DNA of 64,000 nt from Bilabrum cf. latius (lineage: Eukaryota): contig OZ237742.1 of the NCBI GenBank assembly GCA_965178125.1, positions 620,001 through 684,000 on the forward strand. Reading direction: 5' to 3'. Shown in pieces: positions 9,001 through 51,100 of the stretch (within the stretch, counting starts at the first letter, position 1; each line of letters starts with the position of its first letter). A program made the translations under genes and the position numbers. The notes under the pieces are model-generated. The model was given only the letters and a program-made list of their open reading frames with translations. It ran no database searches and had not been told where the DNA came from.

Positions 9001-10302
9001 TACGTCAAGTCCTCGCAAGAGCGGTCGTTAGCGGGTGCGATGCGGCGGTTGCTGAGCCAGGACCTTAGAAGGCGTCTACCGTTCTTCGTGCAGATTGCTG
9101 GCGATCGGTACAGGAAGCGGCGCTTGTACACGCTGGCGGTCGATGATGCCATCAGACCGCACCTGCAGACGCTACGAAGGCTCCACACTACATACGCCTC
9201 GCCTGACGCGACATTTACTGTGGAAGTCCCAGTTCGTCGCGGCAAGGCGCTCCTCAAGGCCGTTGCAGGAGCACTGCGAATGCGACTGGCGATGCTAGGC
9301 GCAAAAGGGCTCAAGCAAGGGGCGGGTTCTGGCAACAAGCCAAGTGGTGGGCTGCTTGGGGCCGTCGGGAAAGTGGCGGCAGCTCAGCAGATACCTGCTG
9401 CTGATAGTGTGAGCGAAACAAGTTCGACTTCAACTCCGAATACTCGCACAGTGAGGATGCCACTGATGGCTCTGGAAGGCTTCATGAGGCTGATGCATGA
9501 CGCTCGCGTTGTGGACGGGGACCTCACAAAGCGAGACATCGTCCTTGCGTTTACATTTGCTCGGCTTAGACGACCCGATCCACTGAGGGGATCGGGAGAA
9601 ATGCAGCGCTCTACGCATCTATCATTCATGGACTTCCTCGAGGCGCTGTGCCGAGTTGCAGACTCCCATACCCTACCGACGCACGAGGAAATGCAGGCAG
9701 CTGGCGTGCAGGATCCCAACGAGTATTTCAAGAAGCTGGACGCTGCCGGACTGCCTCGGCCGAGGCGACCTTCAGGGTCGTGGGTCGCCCCGAAAACGCG
9801 GCCGCTAGGTGTGAAGGTCCAGCTGTTCTTGGATCGACTGATGGGCGGCCTAAAAGATCGCGTGGCAACGCTTCGTGACAGCGACTCCAAGATCAAGTCT
9901 GCCCTAGTCCCAACCCCGGCTGGCGGGCTCGCAATTCCAGCTGGTGCCCTCGCTGGAATCAAGGATCCAAAGAAAGCCGTCGAATTTGTGCGTGCAGCCG
10001 CCGCGCTGGCTAGCCGCGCTGCACGAGCTAGGGAGGTTTTAGCCTCAAAGTCAAGGTCCTCCGACCGCAAGCAGCAGCAAATTGTGCTAGATGGGGATGG
10101 TAGAGCCAGCTAGGGGGCCGTGCACAGCTCCGGGCCACGTATTCTGCTCGAGGGAAGTTCTAGTGCGAACGCGCGACGCCGAGGGTCCGTCGTGATCGGA
10201 GCTGGAGACTTGGCCAGGCTGGCCAGCTCGGTGCAGGGTGCTGATCTTGCTAGTAGGGCAGGTGTTCGACGAAGGGTCGGACACAGGAGGCAGTCTGTTT
10301 GA
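1..10302 (+). CDS. Giant uncharacterised protein (>3,433 aa, starts before the window) with C-terminal EF-hand-like helical motifs
   Basis: Frame 1 is open from base 1 to TGA at 10300-10302 except for 30 TAG codons (e.g. 142, 811, 985, 1201, 2131, 4798, 8962, 10111). There is no TAA/TGA and no frameshift, and ORF-track pieces 160..813 through 10120..10302 share this frame. C-terminal motifs LAVFDLYAA, SLHRW[Q]FIESLARIAHDMY, MALEGFMRLMHDAR and LSFMDFLEALCRVA resemble degenerate EF-hand-type helices. Function not assigned. Confidence 0.85.
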
Positions 10303-10444
10303 TTGTACGTGGTCTGTTGCACCATTATGGTTTGACTACATCACGGAATGGTTTGAGTCGAGGCCGTGCACGCACCCAATGTGGCCTTAATGCTGTATGC
10401 ATAGCTACGTCTAATCTATACTACACTTTCTCTAGTTTCAACCA

Positions 10445-13175
10445 TCAGTAAGTTGGGGCAATTCCAGCAGCCCTTAGCTGCTGCCGAAGCCGGTCGGCCT
10501 TGACTGCCAGCAGCTTCGACATTTCCACGCACACTTCCAGCTCCTGCTTGAACCCATCCGCGCCGACCACCCGCCGTTCTGTGGAAGGGTCATCAGTCGA
10601 TAAGCCCGGCGAGTCAAGGAGCTTCTTGCAGTTGTCTACTACCCACTTAAATCCCGCCTGCGCATCCACGCAGTCCCTGACACGGCCAGCGGCCGTAGGA
10701 TCCAGCCTCTTGTTGACGAGGTGGGCCACCACAAATGCTGCGTTCAGGTAAGCCATGGTCGTCCCGCTGTCAATCTCCGTGGCGCCAACGAGCGGCTTGT
10801 CCTAACTGCCGCCAGCGTATCCCCCGTCCGCAAGAATGCTAGGCTGCTCTTTCGCAAGCACAGCGTCTCTCATGACATCTTGGATCAGGTCCGCCCTCTC
10901 TGATATGCAACGGGGTACTGGGGGTCCACCGGCTGGCAGCCGCTTGTCGCTAAAACATCTCAAGAAGTGCAAGTTGAAGAAGATGGCTCGATCCACAACC
11001 TTGCACAAGCCGTTCAGCTCGCCGAGACTGGGTGCCTTTTGCGATTGCTCGAAGGCGTCATCCACCAGCTGCATCTTGATCTCTGCGGCCTCTCGCGCTG
11101 CCATGGCACACTGGTGCGATAGTTCTTTGTGGTTCACGATGAAGATGGACGGGTTCAGCACACCAAGCAAGCCTGCCTGCAGACCGACCCGCCGCAGGTG
11201 CATGGCCTGGGCGCGCTGTGGCGTGGACTCAAAGCCAACCAAGCAGCGGTAGAGCCCAGCCTTGTCCTCCTGGATCCGTACATAGTCCGTGACAAAGCCG
11301 TCCAGCTTGAAGTACTTCAGTGCCGTGGCGAAGTGGGCATTCGCCCGTTTGAAGTAGGTTCGGGCCTGCGGGAAGCTGTTGACGTCTTTAGGGGTCGGGT
11401 GCTTGGGATCAAGCGATGGCGGGGTGGCCGGTGGAGTCGTCTCATCTGCACATTCCTGCATGAATGACGCGAAGGGAAGAGCTACTTCGGACGGGGCGAG
11501 CAGCCGCTCGCCCTCGCTTAGCTTGCTCTCTTCGGCTCCCGATGATGGGGCAGACGTGCCTCTGCTTCCCGCTCCCTCCCCAGCCCCACCAGCGGGGGGC
11601 GATTTCGTCTCCACCTCGTCCTCCAGATCCGACTCGGAATCACCTATGTCAACATCAAAGTCGTCGTCCTCAGCGTCATCATCGGCGCCCGTGCCCGATG
11701 CAGCAGCCCCAGAACCCGACTCAGACCCGTCTCCAGGGCGCAGTGGCATGTCAGACCTCGTCCTAACGTTGGACGCGGCTTCAGCCAGGGGAACTGGCAC
11801 GGCCATGCGACGCCTTCTCTTGTAGAGCATGCCCTCCGTCCCTGCAGGCCCAAGTCGATCGGCCTTGATCTCCTCCTGCACATCCCTCTCTCGGGCGGTG
11901 TCCAGCACGTCCAGAAGCAGCCTACCGCGGTAGAGGCTGACCTCCGCGGTAACCCTCTTCGCGCGGTCTCCGACCTCGACGCTACCTGGAGAGATGTCTT
12001 CGACCGATGCAGCGGATGTGGCCTGCATCACGTCCAGCGTTCGCTGCTGCTTGTGGTGCTGCAGCATGCACTCCGCAGCACCGAGACACCTTGCCGCGTG
12101 CTGCCACCATCGCCGCGCCTTGTAGAAATTGCAGAGCCGCACGGCGTTTCTAGACCACTCGATCCGGTCGATTGATGCGCCGATGGTGCTCTTCGTGTCT
12201 GCGGCATCATCCCCCGGGCTATGCTCCGCCGCTGCCAGCTCATCCTGTCCATCTGCCGAAGCATCGCTTCGCGTGACAGCCATATGAGGCGACGAATAGC
12301 CAATCAGCTACCGCTCCAACGTGACTCGGACATATCTCGATGCTGCACTGGTCTCTTGCATGCTAGCGTACACTTGAGCGTAGTAGAAGGTGGTGTGCGT
12401 GTAGGCTGCCTCGAGCTGCAGCGACAGCTCATGCAGCCTGGCTGGTGGCACCGGGGCTGGTTCACCTGCTCGGCCTACCTCGTGTGCCGAAGGGTCTGCT
12501 AACACCACAGCGCTACTCCCGCCTTTGATGTCTGAATCACCATCCTTTGGAACAGCAGGCGCTTGCTTGAGCAGCGGAAGAACTTCGGAATGCACTCGCT
12601 TCGCAAGCCGCAAGTGCTTCAGGGCCGCCCGGGGCCGTGACCACCCAGTTAGAATGAGAGACCTGTGCCCACAGGCACGGATTATGTCGCTCGCAAAACC
12701 AACAATTCCACAAATCAGGGGAGCACTGTCTGCTGGTGCTTTGCGTGATCTGACGGAGCCAAGCAGTGCGGCCAGCACTGGCATCCCCTTCTGTAAAGAC
12801 TCGCCAATCTGCCTATCGCCAGTCGTGTTTTCTTCCGTGTCAATGAAATTGATACCCTTGCGGAGCTTTATCCTTGTGCGCAACAAATCAAGATCCGGGA
12901 TGTCAGCCGCAGTGGAAGCGGCTGTTTCATTGAGGGCTTTCAGCTGCCCATCCTACGGTTATGCGGGAAGGAGTGCAGTACAATCAAGTGTAGACGAATT
13001 GGACGTGAAAAAGCAGCTTTGAAACCTGGACTGTACTTACTAGAACTGCTCTAGCTTCGTACTTGAACTTGTACGGTTCTTTTTCAGGGGACACTTTGGC
13101 CTCTAGAGCATCGGCAGACCTAAGGTCGTTCTAGAATGAAAAGTACAATTCATTCAATTCGTGAGCACCTGACAT
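10445..13175 (-). CDS. KIFBP: KIF-binding protein (KBP/KIF1BP) homolog, 2 exons (13175-13041, 12952-10445)
   Basis: Exon 1 MSGAHELNELYFSF[TAG]NDL...PEKEPYKFKYEARAVL matches the KBP N-terminal PEKEPYKSKYSARALL motif. Also YTHTTFYYAQVY...YVRVTLER[TAG]L, IEWSRNAVRLCNFY and YFKLDGFVTDYVRI. Three in-frame TAG (13131-13133, 12308-12310, 10802-10804); ends TGA at 10445. Confidence 0.93.
12953..13040 (-). other. Spliceosomal intron (88 nt, phase 0) in KIFBP
   Basis: GTAAGT donor and ...CCGTAG acceptor; removing it joins the conserved N-terminal motif in frame to the rest of the protein. Confidence 0.85.
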
Positions 13176-13285
13176 GAATCACGCAAACGATCAAAATGTT
13201 ATCAAGAACACTTTTCGTGGGCGAATTGAGTGGGAGAAGCAGTCGAACCAAACACGATTCCACTTTGGCGCACAACAGCCCCCCA
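13176..13285. promoter_or_regulatory. Putative compact bidirectional promoter (KIFBP / C9orf78-like)
   Basis: Head-to-head start codons about 110 bp apart with an AT-richer spacer. Inferred from geometry only. Confidence 0.45.
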
Positions 13286-14689
13286 ATGCAAGGCACTGAC
13301 AGCGCAGATATTAGCAACTTGTTCAAACCGCGGAAAACGCGAGCGGGAAAGAAGAGAAAGCGTCGGGCGAGGGAAGATGTGGCATAGCAGCTCGACAACA
13401 CCGGCTCAAGCTCGACTGCCGGTCTGGAGGACCAGGAAGAAGAAGACAGGCGCAGGTTGCTGATTCGAGCGGTAGCAAGTAATGTTGCTACCGGCTTGCG
13501 TTCCGCGTCCCACGTCGGGCGCCCGTCTGGGCCGCCGATGAAGAGACCTAGGGCAACCGCTGGTGCCTCTAATCCACCAGATAGCGACATACCGAATGGC
13601 AAGACAACCGCGGGCGCTAGTACGAAGCAACTAGGCGCAACATTCTAGTAGGGCGCTGGTCTGCAGGGCACGCACGGAAGCGAGGATACTGGAGACTTGG
13701 ATGCTACAGACCGCGCTAGGCGTGACCGCTTTGTGCAAGAACAGCTCAAAAAAATGGCGAATGGCAGCAAATCTCCCAATAGCGAAGCGAGCAAATAGGC
13801 TGTAGGTGGGGGCAGTTCAGAATCTGGTGCGATGGATGGATAGCTTCGCGGCATCGCTGCTCTTCGAGAGCTGGAGCGAAGCAGCGACACGTCCTTGTTC
13901 GCGGAACCAGAGGCCGTGCGGCGAGCGAGGGCTGCAGCCAGGCAGGAGCAGCAGTCCAGAAGGCTGCCCCTTGGTCCCAGCGGGGCCCCGTACAGCCACT
14001 CGTCATCCTCATCATCATCATCCTCCGCACAGGGAGCGCAGAAAGAAGACTCAACTGGTGCTGGTGCTGGTGCTGCCGACGCTGCCGACGGCGACGTGGG
14101 GCAGGGAGGCATGCTAGCATACAATACGGGTCTGGCGGAGGTTGAGCTCCCGGCGGAGGAAAGGCTCAGAGTCATCGCAGAGACGGAGCGAGCGCTGGCA
14201 GCCGCTCAGAAGAAGCGAGCACAGGCGGAAGCCGATGCAGCAGCTCTGGCGGAGCGCGAGGCAGAGGCACAGGGAGCGATCGGGGGCGAGTCGGGGGTGG
14301 TCACCGAGGCAGGGGCGAGCGGTGATGCCGTTCGGTTCTCGGGTTCGAGCGTTGCCGCGGATTTCACCAAGCACCGGCGGGCCTTCTCGTACAAGATGCG
14401 GTCGAAGGGAGCGAGCGCCAGGCTGTTCCGTAGGAAAGAGGAAGCGAGGCGTCTGAGGGCCCGTGGGGAACACGCGAGGGCAGATGCGATGGAAAAGGAC
14501 GCAGAGGAGGAGGCCAGGCGAGCCATGGTGGCGGCGCAGGAGGCAGAGCGGAAGGCTCTGCACTGGGAGGACGAGCACCATGGGGGGGGTGAGGAGGAGG
14601 CCGGCGCGGCGTCCAACCGGGCCTCTGCCAGCGACGAGCAGCTGTTCAACCGGATTAAGGGGCGGACTTACATGCGAAGGAGAGGTTGA
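13286..14689 (+). CDS. C9orf78/Tls1 (hepatocellular carcinoma-associated antigen 59 family) splicing-associated protein
   Basis: One frame with 5 TAG (13385, tandem 13646+13649, 13796, 13841), ends TGA. Basic N-terminus (FKPRKTRAGKKRKRR), DRFVQEQLKK, TGLAEVELPAEERLRVIAETERA and C-terminal ASDEQLFNRIK resemble family motifs. Alternative in-frame ATG at 13196. Confidence 0.75.
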
Positions 14690-14854
14690 TTGCTCGCTGC
14701 ATCATTTATTTGCGGTGCATCGCCGTGTATAGAGGCCCCAAACTTCCACCCACAATGTTGCAGAGCTGTGCGGAACCTGTCGGCGATGCTATGCGCGGCG
14801 CTGCCAGGAAATATCCAGCTGCGGTTTGCCATTCGCGCACCGCCTTCTTGCACG

Positions 14855-16726
14855 ATGGGCCACGAAGGATGGCTGTGGAAACTAGGATCATCCACAATGA
14901 TGGGTAGGAGCTACAAGAAACGGTGGTTCGTGTTGAACGGGGCCATGCTAACCTACTTCGCTGACGAAGGCATGGCGAAGCCTCTTGGAAGCGTAAATCT
15001 AAAAGCCTGCACACAATTTGGAGCAGCAGACCCCTCCAAGCATACATCGTCATCCGTTGCTAGATTTGCTATCTACGCCTTGGAAATTGCCACGCCAAGC
15101 CGAAGTCTGGTGATCATTCCCGAGTCTGGCGACGATCAAAGGCAATGGACGAGACAGGTCATGCGCCAAGTACCCCAATCTGCATTATCGGATACGCTGC
15201 CTGTATTGAAGGCTGGATCTCGCAAGGGAGACGGTCCTGACAGCGACGATTCCGACGCTGGGGAATCCAAACGGTCCGGAGGTAGCAAGAAACAAGTTCG
15301 TCTGAAGGGCAGAACATCAACTGCGTTGGTTCCAGTAGACAGCGACGACGAGGATGGAGGTGCGAAGGTTCCGCTGGCGGGCGTACTAAGGCAGCAGAAC
15401 GAGTAGCAGGAAGAAATTGACGAGCTGCGCGCCGAGCTCGCGCAGCTACGAACAGAAGCGAGCAGGCGCGCCTCGAATGCCTCTTCGATCGGGGCACCCC
15501 TCCTCATCAGCGACTCTGATGGGGATACTTCTGGAATCAGCGTGGCACCGCGAGGTTTTCTAGACAGCGAGGACGAGGACGACGACGATGACGAGAAGCT
15601 GGACCCCACCTGCTGCTGCGGCCTCTGCTGCCGCTGCTGCGGGACGTGGAACTGGAAGGTGCTCTACCTGGCCGTCGCTAACGTGGTCGTGCTGGCGCTG
15701 GGCCTGATCATCCTCATCATGGCCGTGGTGGCGCTGAAGAACAAGGCGCAGTTCGAGCAGATTCTGCCCATCCTGGGCATCTACATTCTCCTGGGGACGG
15801 GCATCGTCACGGTGTTTGCAGCACCGGGGGGCACGTTCTGCGCAACGAGGCACAAGTCTGGGTGCGGCAAGATGGGCCTGGTGGTGTACTGCGGCATTTT
15901 GCTCGTGCTCGTGCTGGCCCAGGCGGGCACGGGGGGACTCATGGCGTCGCAGGGAATCATGCTCAAGAAATTCCACGTCAACTCCCAGGGCGAGGTATCC
16001 GGAGCCAAAAAGGGGCTCAACGCGTTCCTCGAGGACGTCTGCAAGCACTGCTGCTAGAATTCGAGCACGGCTCAAGGCGGTGTGGGTGCCTCTGGTCCTG
16101 GCTCGTACGGCAGTGCTGCTGCTGCTGACTGGGCCGTGCTTTCGGGCGGCAACCAGGACCTGGTGCATCCCGAGGAGGGCACCTTGCTTCGGGGCAGCAC
16201 GCAGCCATCGTCCCGCGATGCCGTGGATCTCTCGGTGGACGAAGGCCTTGTGCCAGGGTATGCCTCGGCTGCAGGGCCTGGTGCCGATTCCAGCGTGCTA
16301 GATCTGTGGAGGAAGAAGAAAGGGGGCAGCGAGTGCTCGTGGATCCCTGCCAAGGTCAAGAGCAAGTGCTCCGTGGACGTCGTGGGGCAGTCTGGGTGCG
16401 ATGGTTTCTTGCACTCGCTCACCCATTGGCTGCAGCAACGGATCCTGCCTGTCTCTGGCGTGTGCATCGGGGTGGTCTTCATCGAGATCGTTGCCATCGG
16501 ATTTGCGCTCCGTCTCGTGTCTCCGTGGTGCTGCTCCATGGCCTGCCTCTGCTGCTGCTGCAAGAGAGGAACCAGCTCCGATGACAGCGATGATAGCGAT
16601 TTCGAGGACGATTACAGGAGCAGGCGGGGCTCCCGGAAGGGTGGCAAGCGGGGCCGCGGGGGAGGCAGCAAGCGCTCCAGGAGGAATTCGAGGAGGAGGG
16701 CTTCCACGAGCTCCGGGTTTTACTGA
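14855..16726 (+). CDS. PH domain + coiled coil + tetraspanin-like four-TM membrane protein (623 aa)
   Basis: MGHEGWLWKLG...SYKKRWFVL...LTYF...PLGSVNL...QRQW is a PH domain. The frame continues through TAG 15404 (RQQNE[Q]QEEIDELRAELAQL) into three clustered TM segments, a Cys-containing loop (CKHCC[Q], TAG 16055; SGCDGF) and a fourth TM. Ends TGA. Confidence 0.8.
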
Positions 16727-16923: not shown

Positions 16924-17520
16924 ATGAACAGCGCTATCATGCAGGCACAGCGGACGATTGGCAGAAACGCAGACAGACTTGATGAAGGCGGCCAGTGGTA
17001 AGGGCTTCGGGACTCGCGTAGCTGCCAGTGCGCGAAAGATGCGGACCCGACCGATAGCGGCATACTTTGCGATCCCACCCTGCATCGCAGGTACGCAATA
17101 CTTTCGTGTGTTGCCGTTGGGTCCCTGTTTACGCATGAGCTCGACGCGGTGCTGTTGGAGGAGTGGCGATTCCTTCCGCTTTTCAGTATGGTTCCGGAAG
17201 AGTATGGGTAGGCCGCATTCATTGCCGCTCACGTCCCATTGAACATATTTGTTCTCTTGGCACTGATTTCGGATCAGAGTGCTGCAGAGAGGTCACCAAC
17301 GTCCAGGAGGGCAAGCTCGGTCTTCGCGACCGGGAGGGTGATGTTCGGTATCAATGCCTTCTGCGGCATACATGTTGGCCTTCATCTCTTGCTTGCAGCA
17401 CTGCAGCCAAAGAATCCATTCGTAGGGATTCTATCTTGGACGTATATAGTCGGTGCGGGAGTGGCTGGTTCATCAGCTTGCGCACTACTAGATCGCTGCA
17501 GTAACGGCCAGTTCGGATGA
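16924..17520 (+). CDS. DUF6713-like small membrane protein, 2 exons (16924-16997, 17091-17520)
   Basis: Spliced product contains SLFTHELDAVLLEEWRFLPLF...G[TAG 17209]AAFIAAHVPL...NAFCGIHVGLHLLL...LSWTYIVGAGVAG, matching from recall the HELDA..EWR / HVPL / HxGLH pattern of DUF6713. Start may be ATG 16924 or 16939; ends TGA. Confidence 0.72.
16998..17090 (+). other. Spliceosomal intron (93 nt, phase 2)
   Basis: GTAAGG donor and CATCGCAG acceptor; removes an in-frame TAA at 16999 and restores TG|G (Trp). Confidence 0.7.
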
Positions 17521-17658
17521 ATCCACTAAGTTTGATCCAAATTATCCCTTTTGTGATAGTAATCAGCAGGTTTGCTTATGTGTCTGCGAATCTCCACAAC
17601 AATATCGATTCCGGAATCCGGATTGCACAATAGCCACAAACATCGATCATTCAACGCA

Positions 17659-20600: not shown

Positions 20601-21235
20601 ACTGGGGAGTGCGCAGCAAGAGCTCCGTGCCGGCCCTGATCGCACCCTGCAGCAACGGCACCACCGCCAACTCTTCGCAGCACTGGCAGTACGACGCGCC
20701 CACCGGCCGCTTCCTCCTCTCGGCCTCCGTGGAGGCGGGCGCCAAGCTCGTGTGCCTGACGGCCCCGTGCACGGATTCTCTCGCACACGTGGCCGGCGGT
20801 GCTCCCTTGGACGACCTGGCCACTGTGGAGCCGTGCGCGGACCAGTCTCCCCCACAGGTCAACATCGAGCCGCTGGCACCCGGGATCGCACACGCCGCCG
20901 CGACCACCAGCGGCGGTGCAGGGGGTGCTGCAGCGCAGCCCGGATGCTTCCCGTCCAAGTCCCAGCGGTGCAATGGCGTGAACCAGCAGTGGGACATCGC
21001 CAGCTCCAAGTACAACCCCTCCTCCAGCCTCCTCGTGACCAGGCAGTCCAGCGGGCAATGCCTGGGCGTTCCGGGGGCAGTCGGGCCCACGCTGATCATG
21101 TATGCGTGCGATGATCACTTTGAGCAGTTTGACAACGAGGGCTTCTTGGTGGATGCCGAGAAAAAGCTGCTGCTGTCGGCGAACTCGGGGCCGGGCTGGG
21201 GCCCGGACTACTGCGTGACCGCGGCGAGCTCGTGA
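17659..21235 (+). CDS. Secreted GH95-like alpha-L-fucosidase with C-terminal ricin-B/CBM13-like region, 3 exons (17659-18612, 18734-18836, 19071-21235)
   Basis: Signal peptide MRNLLAIIPAAFLL[TAG]VTAHA; VDWPEFLERSD, GNGLLG, FELSRMDVYDDR, FYYQQIFKFACAAR, DLQGPW, WPDLHW-DMNLQLTY, HLPKTYSPEY, SHRHYSHL, ENEMYFESGGPCTETP. C-terminal QHW/QQW motifs with Cys. TAG at 17701 and 17869; ends TGA. Confidence 0.85.
18613..18733 (+). other. Spliceosomal intron (121 nt, phase 0)
   Basis: CAG|GTGAGC donor and TTCCGCAG acceptor; joins FYYQQ to IFKFA. Confidence 0.85.
18837..19070 (+). other. Spliceosomal intron (234 nt, phase 1) containing a short (CAGGTG)n run
   Basis: G|GTGAGC donor and CCTCTCAG acceptor; joins LHW-G|AT to give WDMNLQL. 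Confidence 0.85.
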
Positions 21236-38900: not shown

Positions 38901-40024
38901 CTGTCAGCAAGGAACGCCCTGGAGGCCTGCTTGCCCAGTGCGTCCAGCCGCTACCGCCAGCTTGTCTCTCGAGATCGAGGAACGGATCTTGAGCGAGAGC
39001 TCGATCCGCCGTTCAAAGGCACGACCAGCCCGTCTCCGCGTGCGTGAACGGATGCAGGTGCATCAGACCCAGACGCCTCGGAGCCCTAGCTGGGCAGTCG
39101 CGGGCGCGTTGGTGGCTGCGGTTTTCTTCGAGGGGGCGAATCGGGGGCTCTCCCAGAGCTTGGAGAAGGTGCGCGCGCTCTAGGGGGTCTGCGGGGCGGC
39201 TGCGACCTGGCGCGAGCCTGGGCGGTGTCCACTGTGCTCCTGCCCATCGCCTGAATCGGTCTCACTGACAAGCCGCCCCTGCCGGGGGCAGTCGAAGCAT
39301 CATGGCCTGCTGCCTCTGCAGCGATGAGTTCTTTGCGCCGCCGCACTTCCAGGCTCTCGAACCGCCGCTTGGTGAGGGCGCTAGATCCCGACTGCTCCCT
39401 CAAGGCCACGACCTCTGCGTGGAGTGACGCGTGGGCAGTTCGAAGCTGGGCTACCTCGGCAGCCAGCGCAACGTTTCGGCGCATGGACTGCTCCTCCTCC
39501 GCTTGGCGCCTGGCTTTCGCTTCTTCCATTTCCTTGCTAGAGGCTTCGGCACTGACTCCCAATGAAGCGAGCTGTCGCCGCAGCTCCCGAATCCGTTGAA
39601 ACGCAAGGTCGGCCCTTTTCTCAGCGGCTGCTCGAGCATCTACAGCAGTATTGGCTTCCTGCCGTAGAGCGTCAATTTCCCTAGTGGTGGTCTGAGCCTG
39701 CGAGCGAAAGCCGGTTGCAAGTGCGAACCATGGCACCTGCATTGCCGTGACTTTGCTGCCCCCAGCTGCCCTGCTGTCTGTATCCACCACACTTGTCACT
39801 TCTTTGCTCAACAACATTGGTTTCAGCATGACTAGAACTCGCTGCAGTATTCGAGCGTACGCTGGGCCGAGGGATTTGCAGAGTGCAGACAAGCATTTCA
39901 ACACGCCCGTAGCAAACTTTGCACAGGATGCCTTGTCTTCTACTAGTGGTAGCTAACGAACATTCGACCCATCAAAGAGGTGGTCGTTTGCGAGCTCTGC
40001 CAGGGCACGTTCCAGGCCAGCCAT
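35948..40024 (-). CDS. Uncharacterised coiled-coil protein (1,358 aa)
   Basis: ATG 40024 to TGA 35948 in one frame with 5 TAG (39953, 39086, 38951, 38165, 37895); heptad-like segments (REIDALRQEANTAVDAR, LQELGAEIEAMEGHIRTL). No family recognised. Confidence 0.8.
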
Positions 40025-40156
40025 GACACAATTTAAGTTATCTTCAAAACGGATCGCATAGTATTGTCTTCATCTTTATTTCATGCGAACGTCGCAAAAA
40101 CGATCATTGATTTGTGTTTGGTAGGATATGTGCCTGCTTCAGACGATTGGTCTTCG
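40025..40156. promoter_or_regulatory. Putative compact bidirectional promoter (coiled-coil gene / HflX)
   Basis: Head-to-head ATGs about 130 bp apart with an AT-rich spacer. Inferred from geometry only. Confidence 0.45.
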
Positions 40157-42649
40157 ATGAGAAGGGGTCTGGTGTGGTGTGTAAAGCTACTTGCGAGAGC
40201 TCACCGACACGCGCCCCTCAGAACACCGCATAGGTGCGCTTCTAGTGCAATCGTGATCCACCCGTACAAGCATAGGAGCAAGGGATGGACTTCATCGGAG
40301 CTCAAGTCCCAAGCCAGTGATCGTTTGGAAGAAGCGATTGCATTGGCTGAAGCCTTGGATTGGAAAGTGGTCGGATCTGCAGCAAGCCCGACGCGAGCGT
40401 CGTCGGCTGCGCTCCTTGGGCCAGGACAAGTGTCAGACCTCTCCGAAGCAGTGCAGAACCTTGGGGCAAGTGTGATATTTATAGATTTGCACGTGTCTCC
40501 TATGCGCGCAAAATCTCTGAGAGATGCCGTCTCAGCCTCTATCGTGGATCGCAAAGGCGTGATTCTCAGCATCTTTGAGAAGCAAGCTCGAACCAGAGAG
40601 GCCTAGGTGCAGACGCGCTTGGCAAGGCTGTAGTACGAGCGAGCACGAATCGTTATGTCAAGCGGAGAGTTCAGGTTTGACTAGCAACGAGGCGGCGCGG
40701 CTGCTATTGGAGGCGCAGGCGAGTAGCAGATCGAGCTGGTCAGGAGACGCTTGGACAAGGCAATCGGCAAGGCAAAGCGCGAGCTCTCGCAGCTGCAGCA
40801 ATCTGCCCGCCACAAGAATTCATCTCATGCTGCTGAGTCGCCAAGCTCTGTCGAGTCGCGGAGGATGCAATTCTTCAGCCAACACGAGGCCATCGACGAG
40901 CCAGTTGAGCAGGTGCTCCATGGGAGCCAGCGCACCAGTTCGAAGGGTAGCATGGACATCCTGTCCGAATTTAGGCTAGCCCCGCTGGTAAGAGCAGATC
41001 CTGTGGCGCTATCGCGCCGATGGTGCTCGCGGCACAAGTCCCAGAGCTCTGGTGGAGCCCCCATCACGGTTGCTCTAGCAGGGTACACGAACGTCGGGAA
41101 GACCGCGCTGGCAAGGGCGCTGTGCGCTGGCAGTCCGTCTGCAGATGACTTCGAGCCGCACGACAGGGTGTTTGCCACGCTCGACACCAAATCAAGGCGC
41201 TCCCGACTGCCGTCAGCGGCGCATGCAGTGCTTGTGGACACGGTTGGATTCATCACCGAGCTTCCGCTTGAGCTGGTGGCCTCGTTTCGGAGCACCCTAG
41301 GGGAGGTGTCGAGAGCAGACATGCTGATTCACGTGCGGGACGCTTCTGCCTCCCGATTCGAGCAGCAAGGCCAGGATGTACGGGAGACCCTGGCGTCCAT
41401 CGGGGCACCCTTAGACGGGCCGGGGGTCTCTGCCGGGGCTGGGCTGCTCTATGTGACGCCGCAAGGGCAGCTATGCCTGGAAGTGTGGAACAAAGTGGAC
41501 AAGTTGCGCGCCCAGGCAGATCAGCAGGAACGCAGCGAACCGGCTGCTGCACTGCATTGCACGACGTAGCAGCAACAGCGAGAGTAGTTGGGTGATAAAG
41601 AATGGGCCACATTGCAGGACTACTTGGATGATGAGGAGAATGCGATGGAGACGCTCGGTGACGACCAACAGGCTACTGCTGCGGGCATCTCCCTTCAATC
41701 GCCTGGCGGAGGCGACACCTCGGAGACAAATTGCGCGCCGCCTGGGCAGCACGAGGCATCCCGGCACTCGACTCCAATTCCAGGCAGATCCACTCGATCC
41801 TCTACCCAAAGGCTTGCTCTTCTAGATCAATGGGAGCATGGCACGCCGCCGGCATAGGCCTCGGCCTCGGAGGGGAACTCCCTTGGTGTGAGCGCGGAGA
41901 CCGGAGAGGGAGTAGGTCGGCTCCGCGAAGCGATCGACTACGCCCACATGCTGCTATCCGGGGAGGTGGACGTGCTGGTAGCTCTCGACGGGGTCTCGAC
42001 GGAGGACATAGAGGCGCAGGTGTGGCTGTTCGCGCCGGACAGTACTACTGGCGGGAGGGGCAACCAACGGATGGACGGGCCGGGGCCACGACGGGGCCGT
42101 GCTTCCAAGAGACCCGGGTCGAAAGGGCGGCGATCTCGCCGTCAACACGACAAGGGAGATTTCAGAGCAGGGACAAGCACAGGCACAGGCACAGGCGCAG
42201 CAACGTCTTGGCAGTTGGAAAGCGGGGAGGACTAGAGTGGTGAGGACAAGGGTGGTGAGGAAGGCCCAGACTGGAAGGACGGCACCTCGGACGGCCTGCA
42301 GTCGCAGAATTATCGCCAGTCAGAGTTGGCTGCATGGCTACGTTGCGACGCCGCAGTACAAGTCCGGGTCACTGATGTGACGGCTGGAGTCGTCAAACGC
42401 AAACACACCGGTGGTGACATCGGCAGCGCCGAACCCATTTCGGAAGGAGGCAGCGATGAAAGCAACGGACAGAGCATGCAGGAGGCCGCCCCCTTGCTGA
42501 TCAGAGCCCGTATGAATCCAGCAGCAGTAGTGCACATGGCACAGCAGTTTCCAGGGATTTCTCAGAGGCTGTCTCCTGCTGACGATGTGTCGGCCCGGCG
42601 ATTGAGGTACCTATTCGAGCACGCGGTGCACAGTCATGGCCGGGGATGA
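40157..42649 (+). CDS. hflX: HflX-family GTPase (GTPBP6-like), probably organelle-targeted
   Basis: LEEAIALAEAL, IVDRKGVILSIFEKQARTREA[Q]VQTRLARL[Q]Y...D[Q]QRGG...GAGE[Q]QIELVRRR; G1 GYTNVGKT, G2 FATLD, G3 DTVGF, G4 NKVD, G5 SAETGEG. Arg-rich N-terminal leader. Eight TAG; ends TGA. Confidence 0.92.
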
Positions 42650-42875: not shown

Positions 42876-43496
42876 TCAAAGCTCACTGTGAGACGGTCCT
42901 CCTGCGACGCGCACGAGCCTCATCTCGTGATCCAGGTCATCCTCAACCTTGTGGTGCGGTGAAATGTGCTCGATCACCCAGAGCTCGTGTGCTTTGTCCA
43001 CAATGAAGTCATCGATGTCTTCTGACGGTGAAAGAGACACCCAGGGGTGCATGGTGGATCCGTAGTGGTACTGCCCGTCATCGTACACCAGAATCGCCCA
43101 TTCATGCCCACCGAGCCAGTCGATTAGCATAACGCTTGATTCGCCAGTGAACGTCGCAAAAAGCTCGCTAGCTGTCTGTCCCTCGAACATGACTGGGGCC
43201 CCTTCCTTGCGATGGTCTCCCAAGAAGTGCAATTTCTTTTCAACCGTCTGTGGGTGCGACTGCTGCAGAGCTTCCGCGCTGTTGAGCTGCTCTTTCGTTG
43301 CCGAAATACCCAACGCTTTCAAAGCCTTGTGCGCGAGGTCGGCGCTTGTAATGTCAGTGTCGTCCTGAATGGAATCGAACAGCTCTGTCATCAACTTCGA
43401 ATAGCTCTTGCGAGTCCCCCAGGCCGCAACAGGCTAGAGCACGCAACCAAGGATGAAAGAAGCTGCGATTAACCTTGTGGCTGTACTTATTCCCAT
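42876..43496 (-). CDS. Small putative secreted protein (206 aa), unknown function
   Basis: MGISTATRLIAASFILGCVL[TAG 43434]PVAAWG signal-peptide-like leader in frame with ORF 42876..43394; ends TGA. Upstream in-frame ATGs exist, so the start is uncertain. Confidence 0.65.
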
Positions 43497-43729
43497 TCTG
43501 ATGCTTGGCGCACTGCCCAATGTGCAAATAAATGAACCACAGCTGGCAAAGTGTGGCGCCGCGGTCATGGCAACGGAACCACTCATTCTGGAGGTCGCAA
43601 GGCCAACAAGCAAGGTCGCGAGGCGACGAAAGCAGGGCCATGCAAAACTAGCGCTACCTTCAGGCCCTGCGGTGAACGACTGCATCTCGATTGCTGCCTG
43701 CTGCGATTTGTAAGTGGTATCACCGCGCA

Positions 43730-43957
43730 TTACTGCTTCATGGCAGCCACATGAACCGGTATGCTCGAACTGTGTAGGGACCTCTGGTTGTTCTCTGGCA
43801 GGGCCTCCAGCAGTATGGCGCAGTTATTCGACGGGTTGCAGCTCCACAGCTCCTCCAAGTTGCCGTGGGCGGATGTCGTGGCCCTGAAATGCAGCTTGTC
43901 GTTGAAGATCCAGCCGCTGGCGCCGGAGCCCCCACTGGCAGACACGTGGTCGAGCAT
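43730..43957 (-). pseudogene. Possible gene fragment with one ELWxxDGT-like repeat unit
   Basis: IFNDKLHFRATTSAHGNLEELWSC resembles the LYF.A....HG.ELW unit. Single copy, short, ends in TAA. Confidence 0.3.
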
Positions 43958-44953: not shown

Positions 44954-45029
44954 CCTGCAATGTTGCGTGAAATTTGCGAAAACTCTGTTTTTCTGTCGGA
45001 TTCGTCAAATACCACGGTCCGTCTCCAGC

Positions 45030-48016
45030 ATGAGTTGGTTTCGATCGTCTGATATGGAGTATATTTCCGTAGTTATTAATAGGTAGAGAGCCCGCGAATG
45101 CATGGAGCGCCTGGGGGACCTTGGGGTAATGCAATTTCGTGATGTAAGGACTGTCTGCGGCGTAACTGGAAACCATTCTTTATCGAATCCTCGCAATGGC
45201 ACATATCACAACACCGTGAATCTATTGCTCTCTCCTCTCAGCTACAAGGAGACACGACAGCTTTCAAACGCGATTTTACGGATGATATTAGGGTATGCGA
45301 TGAGCTGGAGCTCATCCTGGCGAACTTTGAGAAAGAAATGAAGGCGTTCGGCATCGCCCCAGACGTAAGTTGCCATAGAATGTTGAGCACTTGCCTGTGA
45401 GAAGCCGTCAACCCCGCAATGCTGCTCTAGTCATGTCCCAATCCATGCCTACTGCAGCACCTCACGGTGGAAGATTTTTATGATTGGAGAGCGAACGAGG
45501 ACAACGCAAACGCATCGAACTCCAAAGCAGTTCACAGACCTATTCTAGAGTTTTGGCAAGGACGGCTTCAGAGGGAGCACAACGAGTATCAGCACATCAC
45601 GAAAGCACGAGATGAGAACATTCGAGCACGGGCCCACGCCGTCGAGGAAGAAGAAGTCGTGGAACGTCTCGCAGAGCTGTTTGAGGTAGAAACCAACCCG
45701 GGCGGTATTATGGACACAGGAAACGTTGCCGTGACAGATGACGGCAGCATGGCGCTCATGGGCGGGTCTGCCGGCGGATTTGGAGCCGGTGACAGCAAGC
45801 GGGCCGCGCAGCAGCAGCCGCAGCAGCAAGTTGGCTTCCAACACGTTGCAGGCACCATTCCTCGTTCCCAGGTCCGCAAGTTCGAGCGCAGGGTGGTGAT
45901 TGCCAGCCGTCGACAAGCCTACGTGCGGTTCTCTGAGCCTCAATACGAGCTCTACAACCGGCGCGGGGAGGCCGAGGACCGCGTGGTGTTCGCCGTGTTT
46001 TTTCATGCCACTGCGGTGGCGAAGAGGGTGAGGAGGGTGTGCTCGGCCTATGGGTCCAGCCTGTACACGGTGCCTGAGCTGGGCGACCCCATGCGGGCGC
46101 ACGCCGCGGTGTCTGCAAGGCAGAAGGATGTTCGAAGGCACATCGAGGAGCAGTCGGACCTGCTGAGGAGACAGGAGGCCCAGATTAAGACCATGCTCGT
46201 GCGAGCAGCGAGGGACCTCGTCCATCTGAAGCGCGGTGTCCGCAGGGAGAAGGCCATCGCCATCGCTCTCAACCGGCTGGAGCCCGCCTCCGACACGATG
46301 CTGAAGGGGGAGGCCTGGGTGCTGCCCGACAAGCGGGGTGCTGTCGAGGACGCGGTGAGAAGCGCGCACATGGTGCAGTCGACGGGGAATCCGCTGCCCT
46401 ACTTCATCAACACGGTGCCCAAGCAGCACTGGGGCATGCCCCCCACCCACTTCCGCACCAACAAGTTTACCAAGATTTTCCAGGACGTGGTGGACACGTA
46501 CGGAGTGGCCATGTACAAGGAGGTCAACCCCGCTCTATTCACCACGATCAGCTTCCCGTTTCTGTTCGGAGTTATGTATGGTGACGTGGGCCACGCGTCG
46601 ATCATCTTTATTATCGCGGCGCTGGCCATCATCTTCGAGGAGCAGCTGATCCGCGCCAAGCTCAGCGACATGTACCAGATGGCGTTCCAGGGCCGGTACA
46701 TGATCCTGCTCATGGCATTCTTTGGAATGTACTGCGGCATCGTGTACAATGACCTGTTTGGCTTGAACTTCCAGCTGTTTGAATCCAGGTGGTTCCACCC
46801 AGAGGTGGAAGGTCCCAACGGCACCATGGTGGAGCAGCGGGAGGCGGTACGCAGGGAAGTGGACGGCACCAACGTGTATCCCTTCGGGGTGGATCCGGAG
46901 TGGAAGCGCTCGCAGAACGAGCTCTTGTTTCTCAATTCCATGAAGATGAAGATGAGCGTCATCATCGGGATCGTGCACATGTTCTTCGGGCTCACACTGC
47001 GGGCGGCCAACTCGATTTACTTTGGCAATATGGCTGAGCTGGGCCTCGAGGTGGTCCCCATGTTCGTGCTGTTCATCACTTTCTTGGGATACATCGCCTT
47101 CTTGATCCTGTACAAGTGGAGCGTGGATTGGTACGCCCCCGATTCTCCCGGTGGTCCCCCGAACCTCATCGATCTGCTGATCGGTATCCTTCTGAAGCCT
47201 GGCCAGGTAGATGAGCCGATGTTCGAGGGTCAGGCAGCCGTTCACTCGCTCATCCTCGCGATCGTGTTCATCTGCATCCCGCTCATCTTGCTGGGCAAGC
47301 CGATGGCGCTCTGGAGGTGGCACTCCCAGCAGCGGGTGCGCGCGCCCTTGGGAGCTTCGTACGGTGCTTCTGCCCCGCGGCACGGTGGAGGGGAGGGAGC
47401 GCTTGGGGTTGAGGCCGGAGACGCCGACTCGCTCTTCGATGACGACGAGACGGAAGACCAGAGGGCTTCCTCGCTGTTTGCGCCCGCGTCTGGCGCGGCG
47501 AACGGGGGCGACACTGGCGGCCTTTTGCCAGCATCTGCCGCCGACGAGGAGGACATTTTGGGAGGAGACGATGAAACAGCCGCTTTGACTGGTGGGGGCG
47601 GTGGTGGAGGCCATGGCCACGGCCACGACGGGCCTTTTGACTTTGGTGACGAGCTTATGCACCAGGCCATCGAGACGATCGAGTTCACGCTCAACCTCAT
47701 GAGCCACACTGCGTCATACCTTCGACTATGGGCGCTATCACTGGCGCACACGCAGCTCGCAGCGGTGTTCTGGGAAAAGGCCCTGCGAGGCACCATCGAG
47801 ATGGGCAGTCCGTTCGCAGTCTTCATTGGGTTTGGTGTTTTTGCCGGCGTCACGTTTATGGTGCTCTGCATGATGGACGTGCTGGAGTGCTACCTGCACA
47901 CTCTGCGGCTGCACTGGGTGGAGTTCCAGACAAAGTTCTACAAGTCGGACGGGTACAAGTTCCAGCCGTTCGCTTTCAGCCGCATCGTGGACGAGCCGAT
48001 CGACGCCAGCATGTGA
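45030..48016 (+). CDS. VPH1: V-type H+-ATPase V0 subunit a, 3 exons (45030-45143, 45242-45364, 45458-48016)
   Basis: MSWFRSSDMEYIS...NR[TAG 45084]RARECMERLGDLGVMQFRD|LQGDTTAFKRDF...CDELE; PPTHFRTNKFT, YKEVNP, FPFLFGVMYGDVGH, GRYMILLM, NSMKMKMS, HQAIETIEF, SHTASYLRLWALSLAH, LHTLRLHWVEFQTKFY. Ends TGA. Confidence 0.96.
45144..45241 (+). other. Spliceosomal intron (98 nt, phase 0)
   Basis: GTAAGG donor, pyrimidine tract and CTCAG acceptor; restores QFRD-L. Confidence 0.9.
45365..45457 (+). other. Spliceosomal intron (93 nt, phase 0)
   Basis: GTAAGT donor and CTGCAG acceptor; an alternative in-frame acceptor ends at 45430. Confidence 0.75.
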
Positions 48017-48107
48017 TTGGGTGGTTATCCGTTTCGGAATCCGTTTGCTGTGAATTATGTTTTTTTGATTTGACCTTTGAATATCCGGATGATCTGATTA
48101 TCATCAA

Positions 48108-51100
48108 TCACTGAATTTGTCCAGCAAGGTCATTGTCAGCGCCGGCCTACGCCTTGTCCTGCCCGTTCGTGCCGCCCTCCTCACCTTCCTCGACATCGGC
48201 GTCAGCGCGGACATCTAGTATGTCGAGGGTCGCGCCTCGAGCGTCATCCGCTAGGCCACCACTCATGAATGCCGAGGTTTCTGTCTTTAAGGCTGCCCGC
48301 AAAAGCAGCGCCTCTCGCTCAGCAGAGCGGGCATCGGCGTGGTGATCAGGCTGCACTGAGACCCGAGGCCCGCTGCGGTGCCTCCTGCGGTTTCGATGCG
48401 ATGCATGCGATGCAGCGACTTCGTCATCTTCATCGCTGCTGCTACCATCGCCGCCCTGGAGAATGTCCCGCTTCGTGCCGCTGGCTCCCCCAGACTTGCC
48501 GCCCTTGCCCTTTTGACGCTGTTGATCCTCAGCTGACGCCCCAACGATCCCGAGCGCCTCCAATGGATCCACCTCCTGCCCACCAGGAGCAGTATCACGT
48601 TCGTCATCATGGGCCTCTGCCCCACCGCGATTACCGCTGCTAGAGCCTCCATTGGTGCCATAGCTCGATTCGTCGCCTCCAGACCCGAGGAGCGCAGCTC
48701 GCAGCACGTCCAGAGTGATTCGTCTCGCCCCCTTGCTCTCCTCCTGCCCCTGCCCGCCCACCCCACCGCTACCATGCGTGGTCGAAGGCTACAGACCAAG
48801 CGACTGGACTGCGTCGCGGATCGCCATTCTAGCAGCTTGTGCCTAGCGCCTTGTCGGCAGCCGCGCGCCTGACTTTCCCCGGTGTCCAGACTGCCGACTG
48901 CTGCGGTCGAACTTCCCGAGACCCAACAGCCCAGCAGTCTCCGCGATCGTTGCATCTACTACAGTAGCTGCTAGCTTGGCTCTCCCAGACACCGACTCTG
49001 TCTAAAGGCTGTGAAGAGTGTGCTAGATCTGCTTCATCTGTTTCCTCAGCTTTCTCGCCTGCCGCCTGGCACGCAAATTTTCTTGGTTCTCGTTTCCATC
49101 ACCCTCGCTGTCTGATGACGTTGCTGCCGCAGGCTTCTTTTGTGCTGTTTCATGACCCCTCTCCTCATCTGAAGCACCGCTGTCACTGCGAGCATCGCTG
49201 CTCCACGCACTGTCATCGTGTTCCTCGGGGTCAACGCTAGGAGGCAGCGACTGCATACCCAGCATGGCACGACCTGCCGACCGCAGGAGTCGCTGCGCTG
49301 CAGTGCGCTGCAACAGAGAGACTCCCCGCTTTCCATTCATCAGGCCCGACCATCTCTTCAAAGATCGGCTGCCGGAGGCCCGGGCGTTTATATGGTGCGC
49401 TGTACCCGAGGAGCCGCCACCGCCTTGAAGCACCATGGCCGGACCTGCTGCCGCAACTTGAATCGCAGCAATATTGTCGCTGTCTTCCGACCCATACCCT
49501 CCGTCATCTGCGGCATCGTTGAAGACTCCATCGAGAGCTTGGCCAGGGTTACCGGATGTGCCTTCTGATTCAGCACTCTTTGCGGATCTGCAACACTACT
49601 CCCAGCAGCAGCAGCAGCAAAGCCAGGACAGCACTTTCAAGCAACCTCTCCACGCGCCAGCGCAGCACCGCATGCATGCTCCAGTGGAGGCCTGGCAGCA
49701 AGCGCAGCAGCAGTTACCGCACAGGAGCGCAGCAGACAGAGCAACCACACCGTTGAACACTCCCAGAAGTAGAACGTTCAGCGCAAAGAGCGGTCGTAAG
49801 CACCAATGCGCCTCACGACTGATCCGCTGTGCCGCTTTAAGTGATTCTCGCGACCCAAACGAAGGGCCAAACCTGTTGCCTGTCAGAAGAAGGGCATCCT
49901 GGGCATGAGATACGGCCACCGATGGATACGGGGCCTCTCCTTGTGCCCTCCCCGTCCAGGGTGCCACAGCGACAAGGATGGGTGGGGCGGCCAAGTCGCG
50001 CCGCTCAAGACCAAGGGCATCCTGCATGTCTTGCACTGAGGTGAAGACCTGGGCGTTCTGCACCGCAGAAGCACCGTTGGAGACATCGGTCCCCCGACGA
50101 AGCTCGAAGGCGCGACGCGCCCGCAGCGACTGAGGAATGTACTCAACACCATCTCTCTCCACCCTGCTGCTGATTGTGGAGGGGAGCAGGTTGCTCATGT
50201 TGATCTCCGGATGGCCAGACTTTTGCTGCTTTTGCCCATCGCTTTGCTCCTCTCTTTGCTCGCCCAAGGCGAAGCCCATCTCGTCGTCCAGGTCGCGAGC
50301 GAAGCTGCTCAATTCAGTCTAGGCTACGCCATCCTCGTTAACCCTCGCTGCACCCCCAAGCACCATGCGGGCACCCATTGATGCCAGTCTTGACAACTGT
50401 GTCTGCGCCTCGCGGTGAAGCGACTCGCGATTTGACTGCGGGTCAAGACTGGTCAGGCTCGGGGAGACCCCTTCTACCTACGACGCCCCTGACATGTTCC
50501 GCGCAGCCAAGGCACGTTCACGCACCAATTGGATCCGAAGCAGCGTGCTGGCCGTAACTTCCTCCGCATGGTCCTGGGCAGCTTCCTGGCTGTCAAGCAT
50601 GGCCTCGTCGGCTTCTGATCTCTCCATCATGGACGTGATGAGGCTGTTCCACTGCCGGCCGGAGTCCCGTCGCACAGAGGGGAAAATGCTCGAAATCAAC
50701 GCGATGTAAAGGTTCAATGAGGACACTGCAGTCACCACCACGAATGCCACGAGCATCATGGTGGCCAAGAACCGGTCAGTCGCCTTGAGGTCATCGATGC
50801 CTCCGAGCCCGAGCTGAAATAGACTCAGCATGGCCTTCCCGACCGTGTCGTAGTCCTCGTTCTAGCTGCCGATAGCAATATGCAAGCTGAGCCCAAATAG
50901 GACATGGAATGCTGCCAACAGCAGCAAGTACAGCACAACAGTACCATGCGACAAGGTACTGAATACGCTTACCAGCATTGGCCCTGCGCCAGGGAGCACC
51001 ATCAGAAACTGCACCACGCGTGCCGCTGCCAGCAGCGTAGTAATAGCAATCAGGTCAAACAGTCTGTATATCTGACTACCAACACCGTGCACATCGACGA

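What the first reader, a model, noticed from the sequence alone, without database searches (positions are those of the whole stretch)
10300..48110. All 14 genes stop on TGA; TAA is used neither as sense nor as stop
Stops at 10300, 10445, 14687, 16724, 17518, 21233, 21805, 33022, 35771, 35948, 42647, 42876, 48014 and 48108 are all TGA, and TAA never occurs in frame in these genes. TAA is therefore decoupled from TAG. It may be a rare stop (high GC alone favours TGA), a nearly unassigned codon, or an intermediate on the way to a UAR=Gln code. This predicts an eRF1 with altered specificity and a tRNA-Gln(CUA) without a UUA partner.
Basis: partly seen in the sequence, partly recalled or inferred. 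Interest (0 to 1): 0.75.

Follow-up and report, generated by a model that had tools for sequence, protein, structure and literature searches.

The report
TAG-glutamine protist ending genes only with TGA
This compact, GC-rich protist reads the stop codon TAG as glutamine, ends every gene seen with TGA and never uses TAA; too few genes are visible to tell whether TAA is a rare stop or a dead codon.

Summary
All 14 gene ends are TGA. The open frames hold 131 in-frame TAG and 0 TAA in 19,509 codons.

- **TAG means glutamine.** In a syntenic relative (L001) saturated at silent sites, 22 of 33 well-flanked TAG positions face Gln in the other species.
- **TAA is not a partner of TAG.** If it were, 21-70 in-frame TAA would be expected; there are none.
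- **The relative agrees.** It has 31 TAG, 0 TAA and two TGA ends.
- **Transcripts agree.** Spliced transcript contigs carry the TAGs unchanged and run 44-172 bases past four of the TGA stops.

Whether TAA is still a stop is open. The chance of 0 of 14 is 0.12 to 0.004, depending on the null used (TAA share 0.15-0.38). The 95% upper bound on TAA's share of stops is 0.17-0.19.

My best reading is a code-15-like code (UAG=Gln) with UGA-dominated termination and TAA as a rare stop. The rival, TAA effectively unassigned, is not excluded. In the known UAG-only lineages for which I read stop counts, UAA is the main stop (PMC5304391, PMC11687900), so this usage is reversed. eRF1 and tRNAs could not be examined.

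The parts
1..10302 (+). 5'-open frame of 3433 codons with no Pfam family. It has 30 in-frame TAG and 0 TAA. Stop TGA at 10300-10302.
10445..12958 (-). KIF1-binding-protein-like gene (KBP_C). 3 TAG, 0 TAA. Stop TGA at 10445-10447.
13178..14689 (+). Charged protein of unknown family. 5 TAG, 0 TAA. Stop TGA at 14687-14689. The next gene follows in the same frame.
14690..16726 (+). PH-domain membrane protein, likely ATG at 14855. 2 TAG, 0 TAA. Stop TGA at 16724-16726.
17002..17520 (+). Last exon of a small DUF6713 membrane protein. 1 TAG. Stop TGA at 17518-17520.
17563..21235 (+). GH95-like glycoside hydrolase in at least three exons. One intron starts near 18839 and holds the TAA at 19031-19033. 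The last exon has 0 TAG. Stop TGA at 21233-21235.
   Evidence: the exon joins are inferred from the frames, not from reads
21805..30513 (-). 1,3-beta-glucan-synthase-like gene with a 96-base in-frame intron at 29932-30027. 18 TAG in its frame, 0 TAA. Stop TGA at 21805-21807.
30739..33024 (+). SNM1/DRMBL DNA-repair nuclease-like gene. 6 TAG, 0 TAA. Stop TGA at 33022-33024.
33104..35773 (+). Protein of unknown family with a signal-peptide-like start. 3 TAG, 0 TAA. Stop TGA at 35771-35773. The transcript contig covers 33198-35899.
35948..40069 (-). Protein of 1373 codons, unknown family. 5 TAG, 0 TAA. Stop TGA at 35948-35950.
40037..42649 (+). HflX-type GTPase. 8 TAG, four of them in the conserved N/M domains; 0 TAA. 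Stop TGA at 42647-42649. The transcript contig ends at 42693.
42876..43823 (-). Small secreted-looking protein, likely ATG at 43499. 1 TAG. Stop TGA at 42876-42878. The transcript contig covers 42704-43521.
45030..48016 (+). V-ATPase subunit a with GT..AG introns at 45144-45241 and 45365-45457. One TAG, at 45084-45086 in exon 1. Stop TGA at 48014-48016. The transcript contig ends at 48092.
48108..63998 (-). 5'-open frame of 5296 codons with ankyrin repeats, RyR domains and an ion-transport domain. 49 TAG, 0 TAA. Stop TGA at 48108-48110.

Best explanation
The window comes from a compact, about 58% GC, intron-poor eukaryote of uncertain placement. Its nuclear code reads UAG as glutamine, while UAA and UGA remain nonsense codons. 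This is the code-15 type, as in Iotanema spirale.

Shown here:
- TAG stands at Gln positions.
- TAG is present in the spliced transcripts.
- TAG is never a terminator.
- TAA is excluded from reading frames.
- Every terminator seen is TGA.

Inferred:
- UAG is read by a tRNA-Gln with anticodon CUA. Its C34 cannot pair with the A of UAA, so UAA is not pulled along with UAG.
- eRF1 has lost its grip on UAG but still ends translation at UGA and, less often used, at UAA.
- TAA is rare at gene ends for three reasons. TA is about two-fold depleted. NTA is 4-6 times rarer than NTG in codons. Termination in this lineage favours UGA.
- On this reading, 0 of 14 is a small sample from a TAA share of a few percent up to about 15%.
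For: 1. TAG=Gln. In the alignments with L001, TAG in either species faces Q 24 times, and the next residue (H) 5 times. With at least 6 of 10 flanking residues identical, 22 of 33 face Q. Codons opposite the window's TAG are CAG 8, CAA 5 and TAG 4 of 32. Opposite L001's TAG they are CAG 11 and TAG 4 of 31.
2. TAA is nonsense. There are 0 TAA against 131 TAG in 19,509 codons, and 0 against 31 in 4,036 codons of L001.
3. Nulls calibrated on coding sequence make 0 of 14 unremarkable. GTA/GTG is 139/572, CTA/CTG 157/657 and TTA/TTG 42/262. The whole-window TAA share is 0.174. Six-frame ORFs end in TAA in 46 of 306 cases. These give P = 0.07-0.12.
4. The described nuclear UAG-only reassignments keep UAA as a working stop (PMC5304391 and PMC11687900, passages read). 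No nuclear case of an unassigned UAA turned up in searches.
Against: - 0 of 16 ends are TAA in two species whose silent sites are saturated (27-33% identity at four-fold sites).
- Non-coding DNA gives a TAA share of 0.30-0.33.
- The in-frame nonsense codons flanking the same frames are TAA in 10 of 26 cases (Fisher p=0.0075).
- In the other UAG-only lineages whose stop counts I read, UAA is the main stop: 56 of 71 and 104 of 119 transcripts (PMC5304391), and 86.9-98.3% of genes (PMC11687900). A lineage that avoids UAA needs a reason.
- TAA is usually held to be the most efficient stop. This is recalled, not checked here.
- No gene ending in TAA has been seen, so TAA's function as a stop is assumed, not shown.
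Confidence: 0.55

Rival explanations
1. UGA is the only working stop and UAA is effectively unassigned. eRF1 no longer recognises UAR at all, as in ciliates with UAR=Gln. Only a tRNA-Gln(CUA) exists, so UAA is neither terminated nor decoded and is purged from both frames and gene ends. This would be a standing 'UAG-first' intermediate on the way to a UAR=Gln code.
For: - 16 of 16 terminators are TGA in two species saturated at silent sites.
- TAA makes up 30-38% of TAA+TGA in non-coding DNA and among the nonsense codons flanking the same frames (p=0.004-0.0075).
- There are 0 in-frame TAA in about 23,500 codons although CAA is common (206 + 48). CAA is one transition from TAA.
- Stop usage is the reverse of the UAG-only lineages whose counts I read (PMC5304391, PMC11687900).
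Against: - The sample is 14 genes plus 2.
- Under the coding-calibrated nulls P is only 0.05-0.12.
- An absence of in-frame TAA is equally expected of an ordinary stop.
- No eRF1 or tRNA data are available.
- No precedent for an unassigned UAA in a nuclear genome was found.
Confidence: 0.33
2. An ordinary UAR=Gln code (table 6 type), in which TAA also means glutamine but is rare because of GC bias.
For: TGA is the only terminator seen. TAG=Gln.
Against: There are 0 TAA against 131 TAG and 0 against 31 in L001. Even the most skewed A/G codon pair (TTA/TTG, 0.16) predicts 21 TAA, and CAA/CAG predicts 47.
Confidence: 0.03
3. Standard code, with the in-frame TAGs explained as introns, pseudogenes or assembly errors, so that the stop statistics mean nothing.
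For: None beyond the prior that most eukaryotes use the standard code.
Against: - Frames of 3433, 2953 and 5296 codons stay open once TAG is read.
- Contigs of X5/X8 that skip three GT..AG introns keep the TAGs, with 0 differing letters.
- TAG and CAG/CAA replace each other between the two species.
- The same pattern is seen in the independent contig L001.
Confidence: 0.01

Closest known systems
Iotanema spirale (Fornicata): UAG=Gln, UAA and UGA stops (PMC5304391)
   Same: UAG alone is reassigned, and to glutamine. UAA is kept out of reading frames. UAG is never a terminator.
   Different: In Iotanema UAA ends 104 of 119 transcripts and UGA ends 15 (passages read). Here UGA ends 14 of 14, plus 2 of 2 in the relative, and UAA ends none. 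The organism here is GC-rich, and its V-ATPase a is most like those of diatoms among named hits (32-35% identity). That is only a weak hint of placement.
Phyllopharyngean ciliates Hartmannula sinica and Trochilia petrani: UAG=Gln, NCBI table 15 (PMC11687900)
   Same: The code table is the same as far as it can be tested: UAG=Gln and UAA not sense.
   Different: In the species with reassigned UAG, UAA is the stop of 86.9-98.3% of genes. The authors argue that this fixes UAA as a stop (passages read). Here UAA is unused, so that barrier to a later UAA reassignment would be absent.
UAR=Gln codes with UGA as sole stop (NCBI table 6: many ciliates, diplomonads, some green algae)
   Same: UGA is the only terminator observed, and UAG=Gln.
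   Different: TAA is not used as a Gln codon: 0 against 131 TAG.
Rhizarian exLh: UAG=Leu, UAA and UGA stops (PMC5304391)
   Same: UAG and UAA are uncoupled.
   Different: There UAG means leucine and UAA ends 56 of 71 transcripts. Here TAG faces Leu once and Gln 24 times.

Membership tests
Code-15-type nuclear code (UAG=Gln; UAA and UGA stops) | In-frame UAG at glutamine positions | tested here: met
   22 of 33 well-flanked TAG positions face Gln in the other species. Codons opposite TAG are CAG 19, CAA 5 and TAG 8 (the same 4 TAG-TAG pairs counted from each side) of 63 aligned. The HflX columns alone were ambiguous between R, K and Q.
Code-15-type nuclear code (UAG=Gln; UAA and UGA stops) | UAG is not used as a terminator | tested here: met
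   0 of 14 gene ends, and 0 of 2 in L001.
Code-15-type nuclear code (UAG=Gln; UAA and UGA stops) | UAA is absent from reading frames | tested here: met
   0 of 19,509 codons and 0 of 4,036 codons in L001.
Code-15-type nuclear code (UAG=Gln; UAA and UGA stops) | UAA terminates some genes | tested here: inconclusive
   0 of 14 in the window and 0 of 2 in L001. The 95% upper bound on the share is 0.17-0.19.
Code-15-type nuclear code (UAG=Gln; UAA and UGA stops) | A tRNA-Gln(CUA) is present and a UUA-anticodon partner is absent | not testable with these tools
   No tRNA gene in the window, and no genome is held.
Code-15-type nuclear code (UAG=Gln; UAA and UGA stops) | eRF1 N-domain altered so that UAG is not recognised | not testable with these tools
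   No eRF1 gene in the window or in L001.
UAR=Gln code (table 6) | UAA is used as a glutamine codon alongside UAG | tested here: not met
   0 TAA against 131 TAG, where 21-70 were expected.
UAR=Gln code (table 6) | UGA is the only terminator | tested here: met
   14 of 14 and 2 of 2. The sample is small.
Context-dependent stop/sense codes (Condylostoma, karyorelicts, Blastocrithidia) | The reassigned codon also ends genes near the 3' end | tested here: not met
   No frame ends in TAG. Four transcript contigs run 44-172 bases past their TGA.

The most novel reading that the evidence does not exclude
This lineage is a living 'UAG-first' intermediate. Its eRF1 ends translation only at UGA. Only UAG has been captured, by a tRNA-Gln(CUA). 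UAA is an unassigned nuclear codon, purged from frames and gene ends and free to be captured later. That would give the common UAR=Gln code a stepwise route and would be the first nuclear example of a stop codon caught in the unassigned state.
Probability: 0.3. Interest if true: 0.85.

Novelty: new member of a known kind. Interest (0 to 1): 0.55.

Why it matters
UAA and UAG almost always change meaning together. The few nuclear lineages in which only UAG changed use UAA as their main stop where counts are reported. That has been taken to mean UAA is locked in as a stop there (PMC11687900).

Here a GC-rich protist lineage, seen in two species, reads UAG as Gln and ends every observed gene with UGA. 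TAA is unused. If this holds genome-wide, the lock is absent.

The organism would then either show how codon usage frees UAA for capture, or be the unassigned-codon intermediate that codon-capture theory predicts. Both can be tested with data that already exist in public runs: stop counts, the eRF1 sequence and tRNA anticodons.

There is also a practical consequence. Standard-code gene calling shatters this organism's proteins. An example is the 306-residue HflX fragment P0121 from a 91%-identical relative.

Tried and rejected
- **Whole genome.** None is held for the window.
- **RNA genes.** ARAGORN found 0 tRNA genes in the window. Rfam found 0 families at gathering score.
- **Earlier notes of this scan.** Nothing on this genome or on look-alike stretches. 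Word searches returned only a giant virus and a phage with TAG=Gln.
- **More relatives for more gene ends.**
  - Metagenome contigs gave one close relative, L001, among 53 loci.
  - Genome contigs gave none in two scans.
  - Viral contigs gave none in one scan.
- **Protein database.**
  - The protein atlas gave no placement (after a busy answer).
  - The glucan-synthase search returned 1 hit.
- **HflX columns.** Across 120 homologues the four TAG columns held R/K/T/Q, E/Q/L/R, R/Q/G and T/K/R/Q. This did not separate Gln from Arg. The comparison of orthologous codons settled it.
- **Sequencing runs.** No RNA holder is listed. Even so, contigs of X5 and X8 skip three GT..AG introns that the contigs of X1 do not skip. 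All laid contigs matched the window with 0 differing letters outside the repeat at about 44100-44950, so they gave no strain differences at stop codons.
- **TAA-ended frames.** 46 of 306 six-frame ORFs of 100 codons or more end in TAA.
  - 43 overlap the 14 genes by at least half, in another frame or on the other strand.
  - 1 (18665-19033) ends inside the GH95 intron.
  - 2 lie 5' of gene 12, outside its transcript contig.
  - None is a credible gene end.
- **Tandem back-up stops.** The next in-frame nonsense codon after the stop is TGA in 10 cases and TAA in 4 of 14. Only 3 lie within four codons. This is too few to read.
Full report
**What the window is.**
- The 64-kb window is 55-64% GC.
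- Under the bacterial/standard stops it breaks into short frames.
- Once TAG is read as a residue it resolves into 14 long frames that cover 95% of it. These include frames of 3433, 2953 and 5296 codons.
- The products are eukaryotic: KIF1-binding protein, a PH-domain protein, GH95, a 1,3-beta-glucan synthase, an SNM1/DRMBL nuclease, HflX, V-ATPase subunit a, DUF6713, and an ankyrin/RyR/ion-channel giant.
- Genes lie 90-400 bases apart.
- The best database match of V-ATPase a is only 45% identical. Named hits are diatoms at 32-35%. Placement is therefore uncertain, and a stramenopile affinity is only a weak hint.

**The observation.**
- All 14 listed stops are TGA.
- The frames hold 131 in-frame TAG and no TAA in 19,509 codons. 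After trimming to likely starts the counts are 127 TAG and 0 TAA in 18,894 codons.
- The test is not circular. With TGA as the only stop no frame changes at its 3' end, and the largest frames still hold 0 TAA.
- The TAAs that appear lie upstream of the starts. The frames' upstream bounds are TAA in 6 cases and TGA in 6, of 12.

**Transcripts.** Four runs were laid on 28201-48200.
- Contigs of X5 and X8 skip three GT..AG intervals that the contigs of X1 do not skip. These are 45144-45241 and 45365-45457 in V-ATPase a, and 29932-30027 on the minus strand in the glucan synthase gene. They therefore behave as spliced transcripts.
- They match the window with 0 differing letters across TAG codons, for example in 33198-35899, 41200-42693 and 45042-45143. 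TAG is therefore in the mRNA.
- The contigs end at 35899, 42693, 42704 and 48092, which is 44-172 bases beyond the TGA stops at 35773, 42649, 42876 and 48016.
- The listing of runs named no RNA holder. The RNA nature rests on the splices.

**What TAG means.**
- HflX columns from 120 homologues were ambiguous between Arg, Lys and Gln. Pairwise alignments to solved HflX gave Q, Q, Q, K and K, R, R, T.
- A metagenome contig, L001 (13,009 bases), proved to be a syntenic relative. It has V-ATPase a at 821-3436 (+) and the giant gene at 3510-13007 (-). Amino-acid identity is 86% and 62%.
- Four-fold sites are only 27-33% identical, so silent sites are saturated.
- Opposite the window's 32 aligned TAGs, L001 has CAG 8, CAA 5 and TAG 4. 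Opposite L001's 31 TAGs, the window has CAG 11 and TAG 4.
- By residue, TAG faces Gln 24 times and the next residue (His) 5 times. With at least 6 of 10 identical flanking residues, 22 of 33 face Gln.
- TAG is therefore glutamine.

**TAA is not TAG's partner.** The other A/G codon pairs run from 0.16 (TTA/TTG) to 0.53 (GAA/GAG). A TAA read like TAG should then occur 21-70 times in the window and about 14 times in L001. It occurs 0 times in both. An ordinary UAR=Gln code is thus excluded in practice.

**Is TAA still a stop?** This is the open point. Sixteen ends in two species with saturated silent sites are all TGA. How surprising that is depends on the null used for the TAA share of TAA+TGA:
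- 0.15 among all 306 six-frame ORFs of 100 codons or more.
- 0.174 among all trinucleotides.
- About 0.14-0.20 by analogy with NTA against NTG codons.
- 0.30-0.33 in 4,891 non-coding bases.
- 10 of 26 among the in-frame nonsense codons that flank the same frames (Fisher p=0.0075).

Across shares of 0.14-0.33, P(0 of 14) runs from 0.12 to 0.004 and P(0 of 16) from 0.09 to 0.002. The 95% upper bound on the TAA share is 0.19 for n=14 and 0.17 for n=16. No credible gene end on TAA was overlooked. Of 46 TAA-ended ORFs, 43 overlap the genes in other frames, and the other 3 lie in an intron or a 5' region.

**Interpretation.**
- My best reading, at 0.55, is a code-15-type code: UAG=Gln through a CUA-anticodon tRNA that cannot read UAA, and an eRF1 blind to UAG. 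TAA remains a seldom-used stop and UGA is strongly preferred.
- The rival, at 0.33, is that UAA is effectively unassigned: a UGA-only eRF1 and no UUA-anticodon tRNA.
- Both predict no in-frame TAA. They differ only in whether some genes end in TAA, and a 14-gene window cannot settle that.
- The tRNA and eRF1 parts are inference. Neither gene is in the window and no genome is held.

**Comparison with what is known.**
- UAG-only reassignment in nuclei is described for the rhizarian exLh (Leu), Iotanema spirale (Gln), Scotinosphaera (Ser, as cited) and five phyllopharyngean ciliates.
- In those with counts that I read, UAA is the main stop. It ends 56 of 71 and 104 of 119 transcripts (PMC5304391, passages). 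It ends 86.9-98.3% of genes in the ciliates (PMC11687900, passages).
- The authors of the ciliate paper argue that this fixes UAA as a stop.
- The present lineage has the opposite usage.
- Four full-text searches found no report of a UAG=Gln nuclear code with UGA-only termination, of a stramenopile with UAG as a sense codon, or of an unassigned nuclear UAA. I read only listings and abstracts of the other hits.

**Verdict.**
- The decoupling of TAA from TAG is real and strong.
- The absence of TAA at gene ends is suggestive but under-powered.
- The finding is a new member of the known UAG=Gln kind with reversed stop usage. It carries a roughly one-in-three chance of being the more interesting unassigned-UAA state.

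Noticed in passing
window 44090-44916: A high-copy repeat sits between gene 12 and V-ATPase a. Summed contig depth is 1428-2312 in run X1, against about 16 on either side. There are many variant letters, and the long contigs of X1 break here. No Rfam family or tRNA was found.
   Followed up: partly
window, the 14 stop codons: The word after the stop is often the same. TGATTG follows at 4 of 14 ends (10300, 14687, 48014, 48108), against 37 of 1764 for all TGA in the window. A T follows TGA at 7 of 14 ends. At 21805 the stop reads TGA AGT TGA TTG. This may be a termination or 3'-end context.
   Followed up: partly
window 13178-16726: Two genes lie in the same frame, separated only by the TGA at 14687-14689. 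No other TAA or TGA occurs for 679 codons. The PH-domain gene probably starts at the ATG at 14855. Read-through would fuse the two proteins.
   Followed up: no
window 29932-30027 (minus strand): The 96-base intron of the glucan-synthase gene is a multiple of three and holds no TAA or TGA in frame. Retaining it would keep the frame open.
   Followed up: no
window 19043-21235 and 45030-48016: The genes richest in GC at third positions hold almost no TAG: the GH95 last exon (GC3 0.80, 0 TAG) and V-ATPase a (GC3 0.77, 1 TAG). The giant genes at GC3 0.55-0.60 hold 30 and 49. TAG use seems to follow codon bias or expression.
   Followed up: no
L001 3434-3439: In the relative, V-ATPase a ends in a tandem TGA TGA. 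Its giant gene ends TGA ACA, so the TGATTG context is not conserved.
   Followed up: no
protein P0121 (public assembly; HflX orthologue of window 40157-42649): A 306-residue protein, 91% identical, starts just after the cluster of four TAGs in HflX and diverges near the next TAGs. This points to a second close relative whose genes are cut at TAG by standard-code gene calling.
   Followed up: partly
window 17563-21235: The GH95-like gene seems to have at least three exons in three frames. A GTGAGC donor lies near 18839, and the conserved 'LQGPW' stretch sits in the frame 18665-19033. The exon joins are inferred from the frames only.
   Followed up: partly
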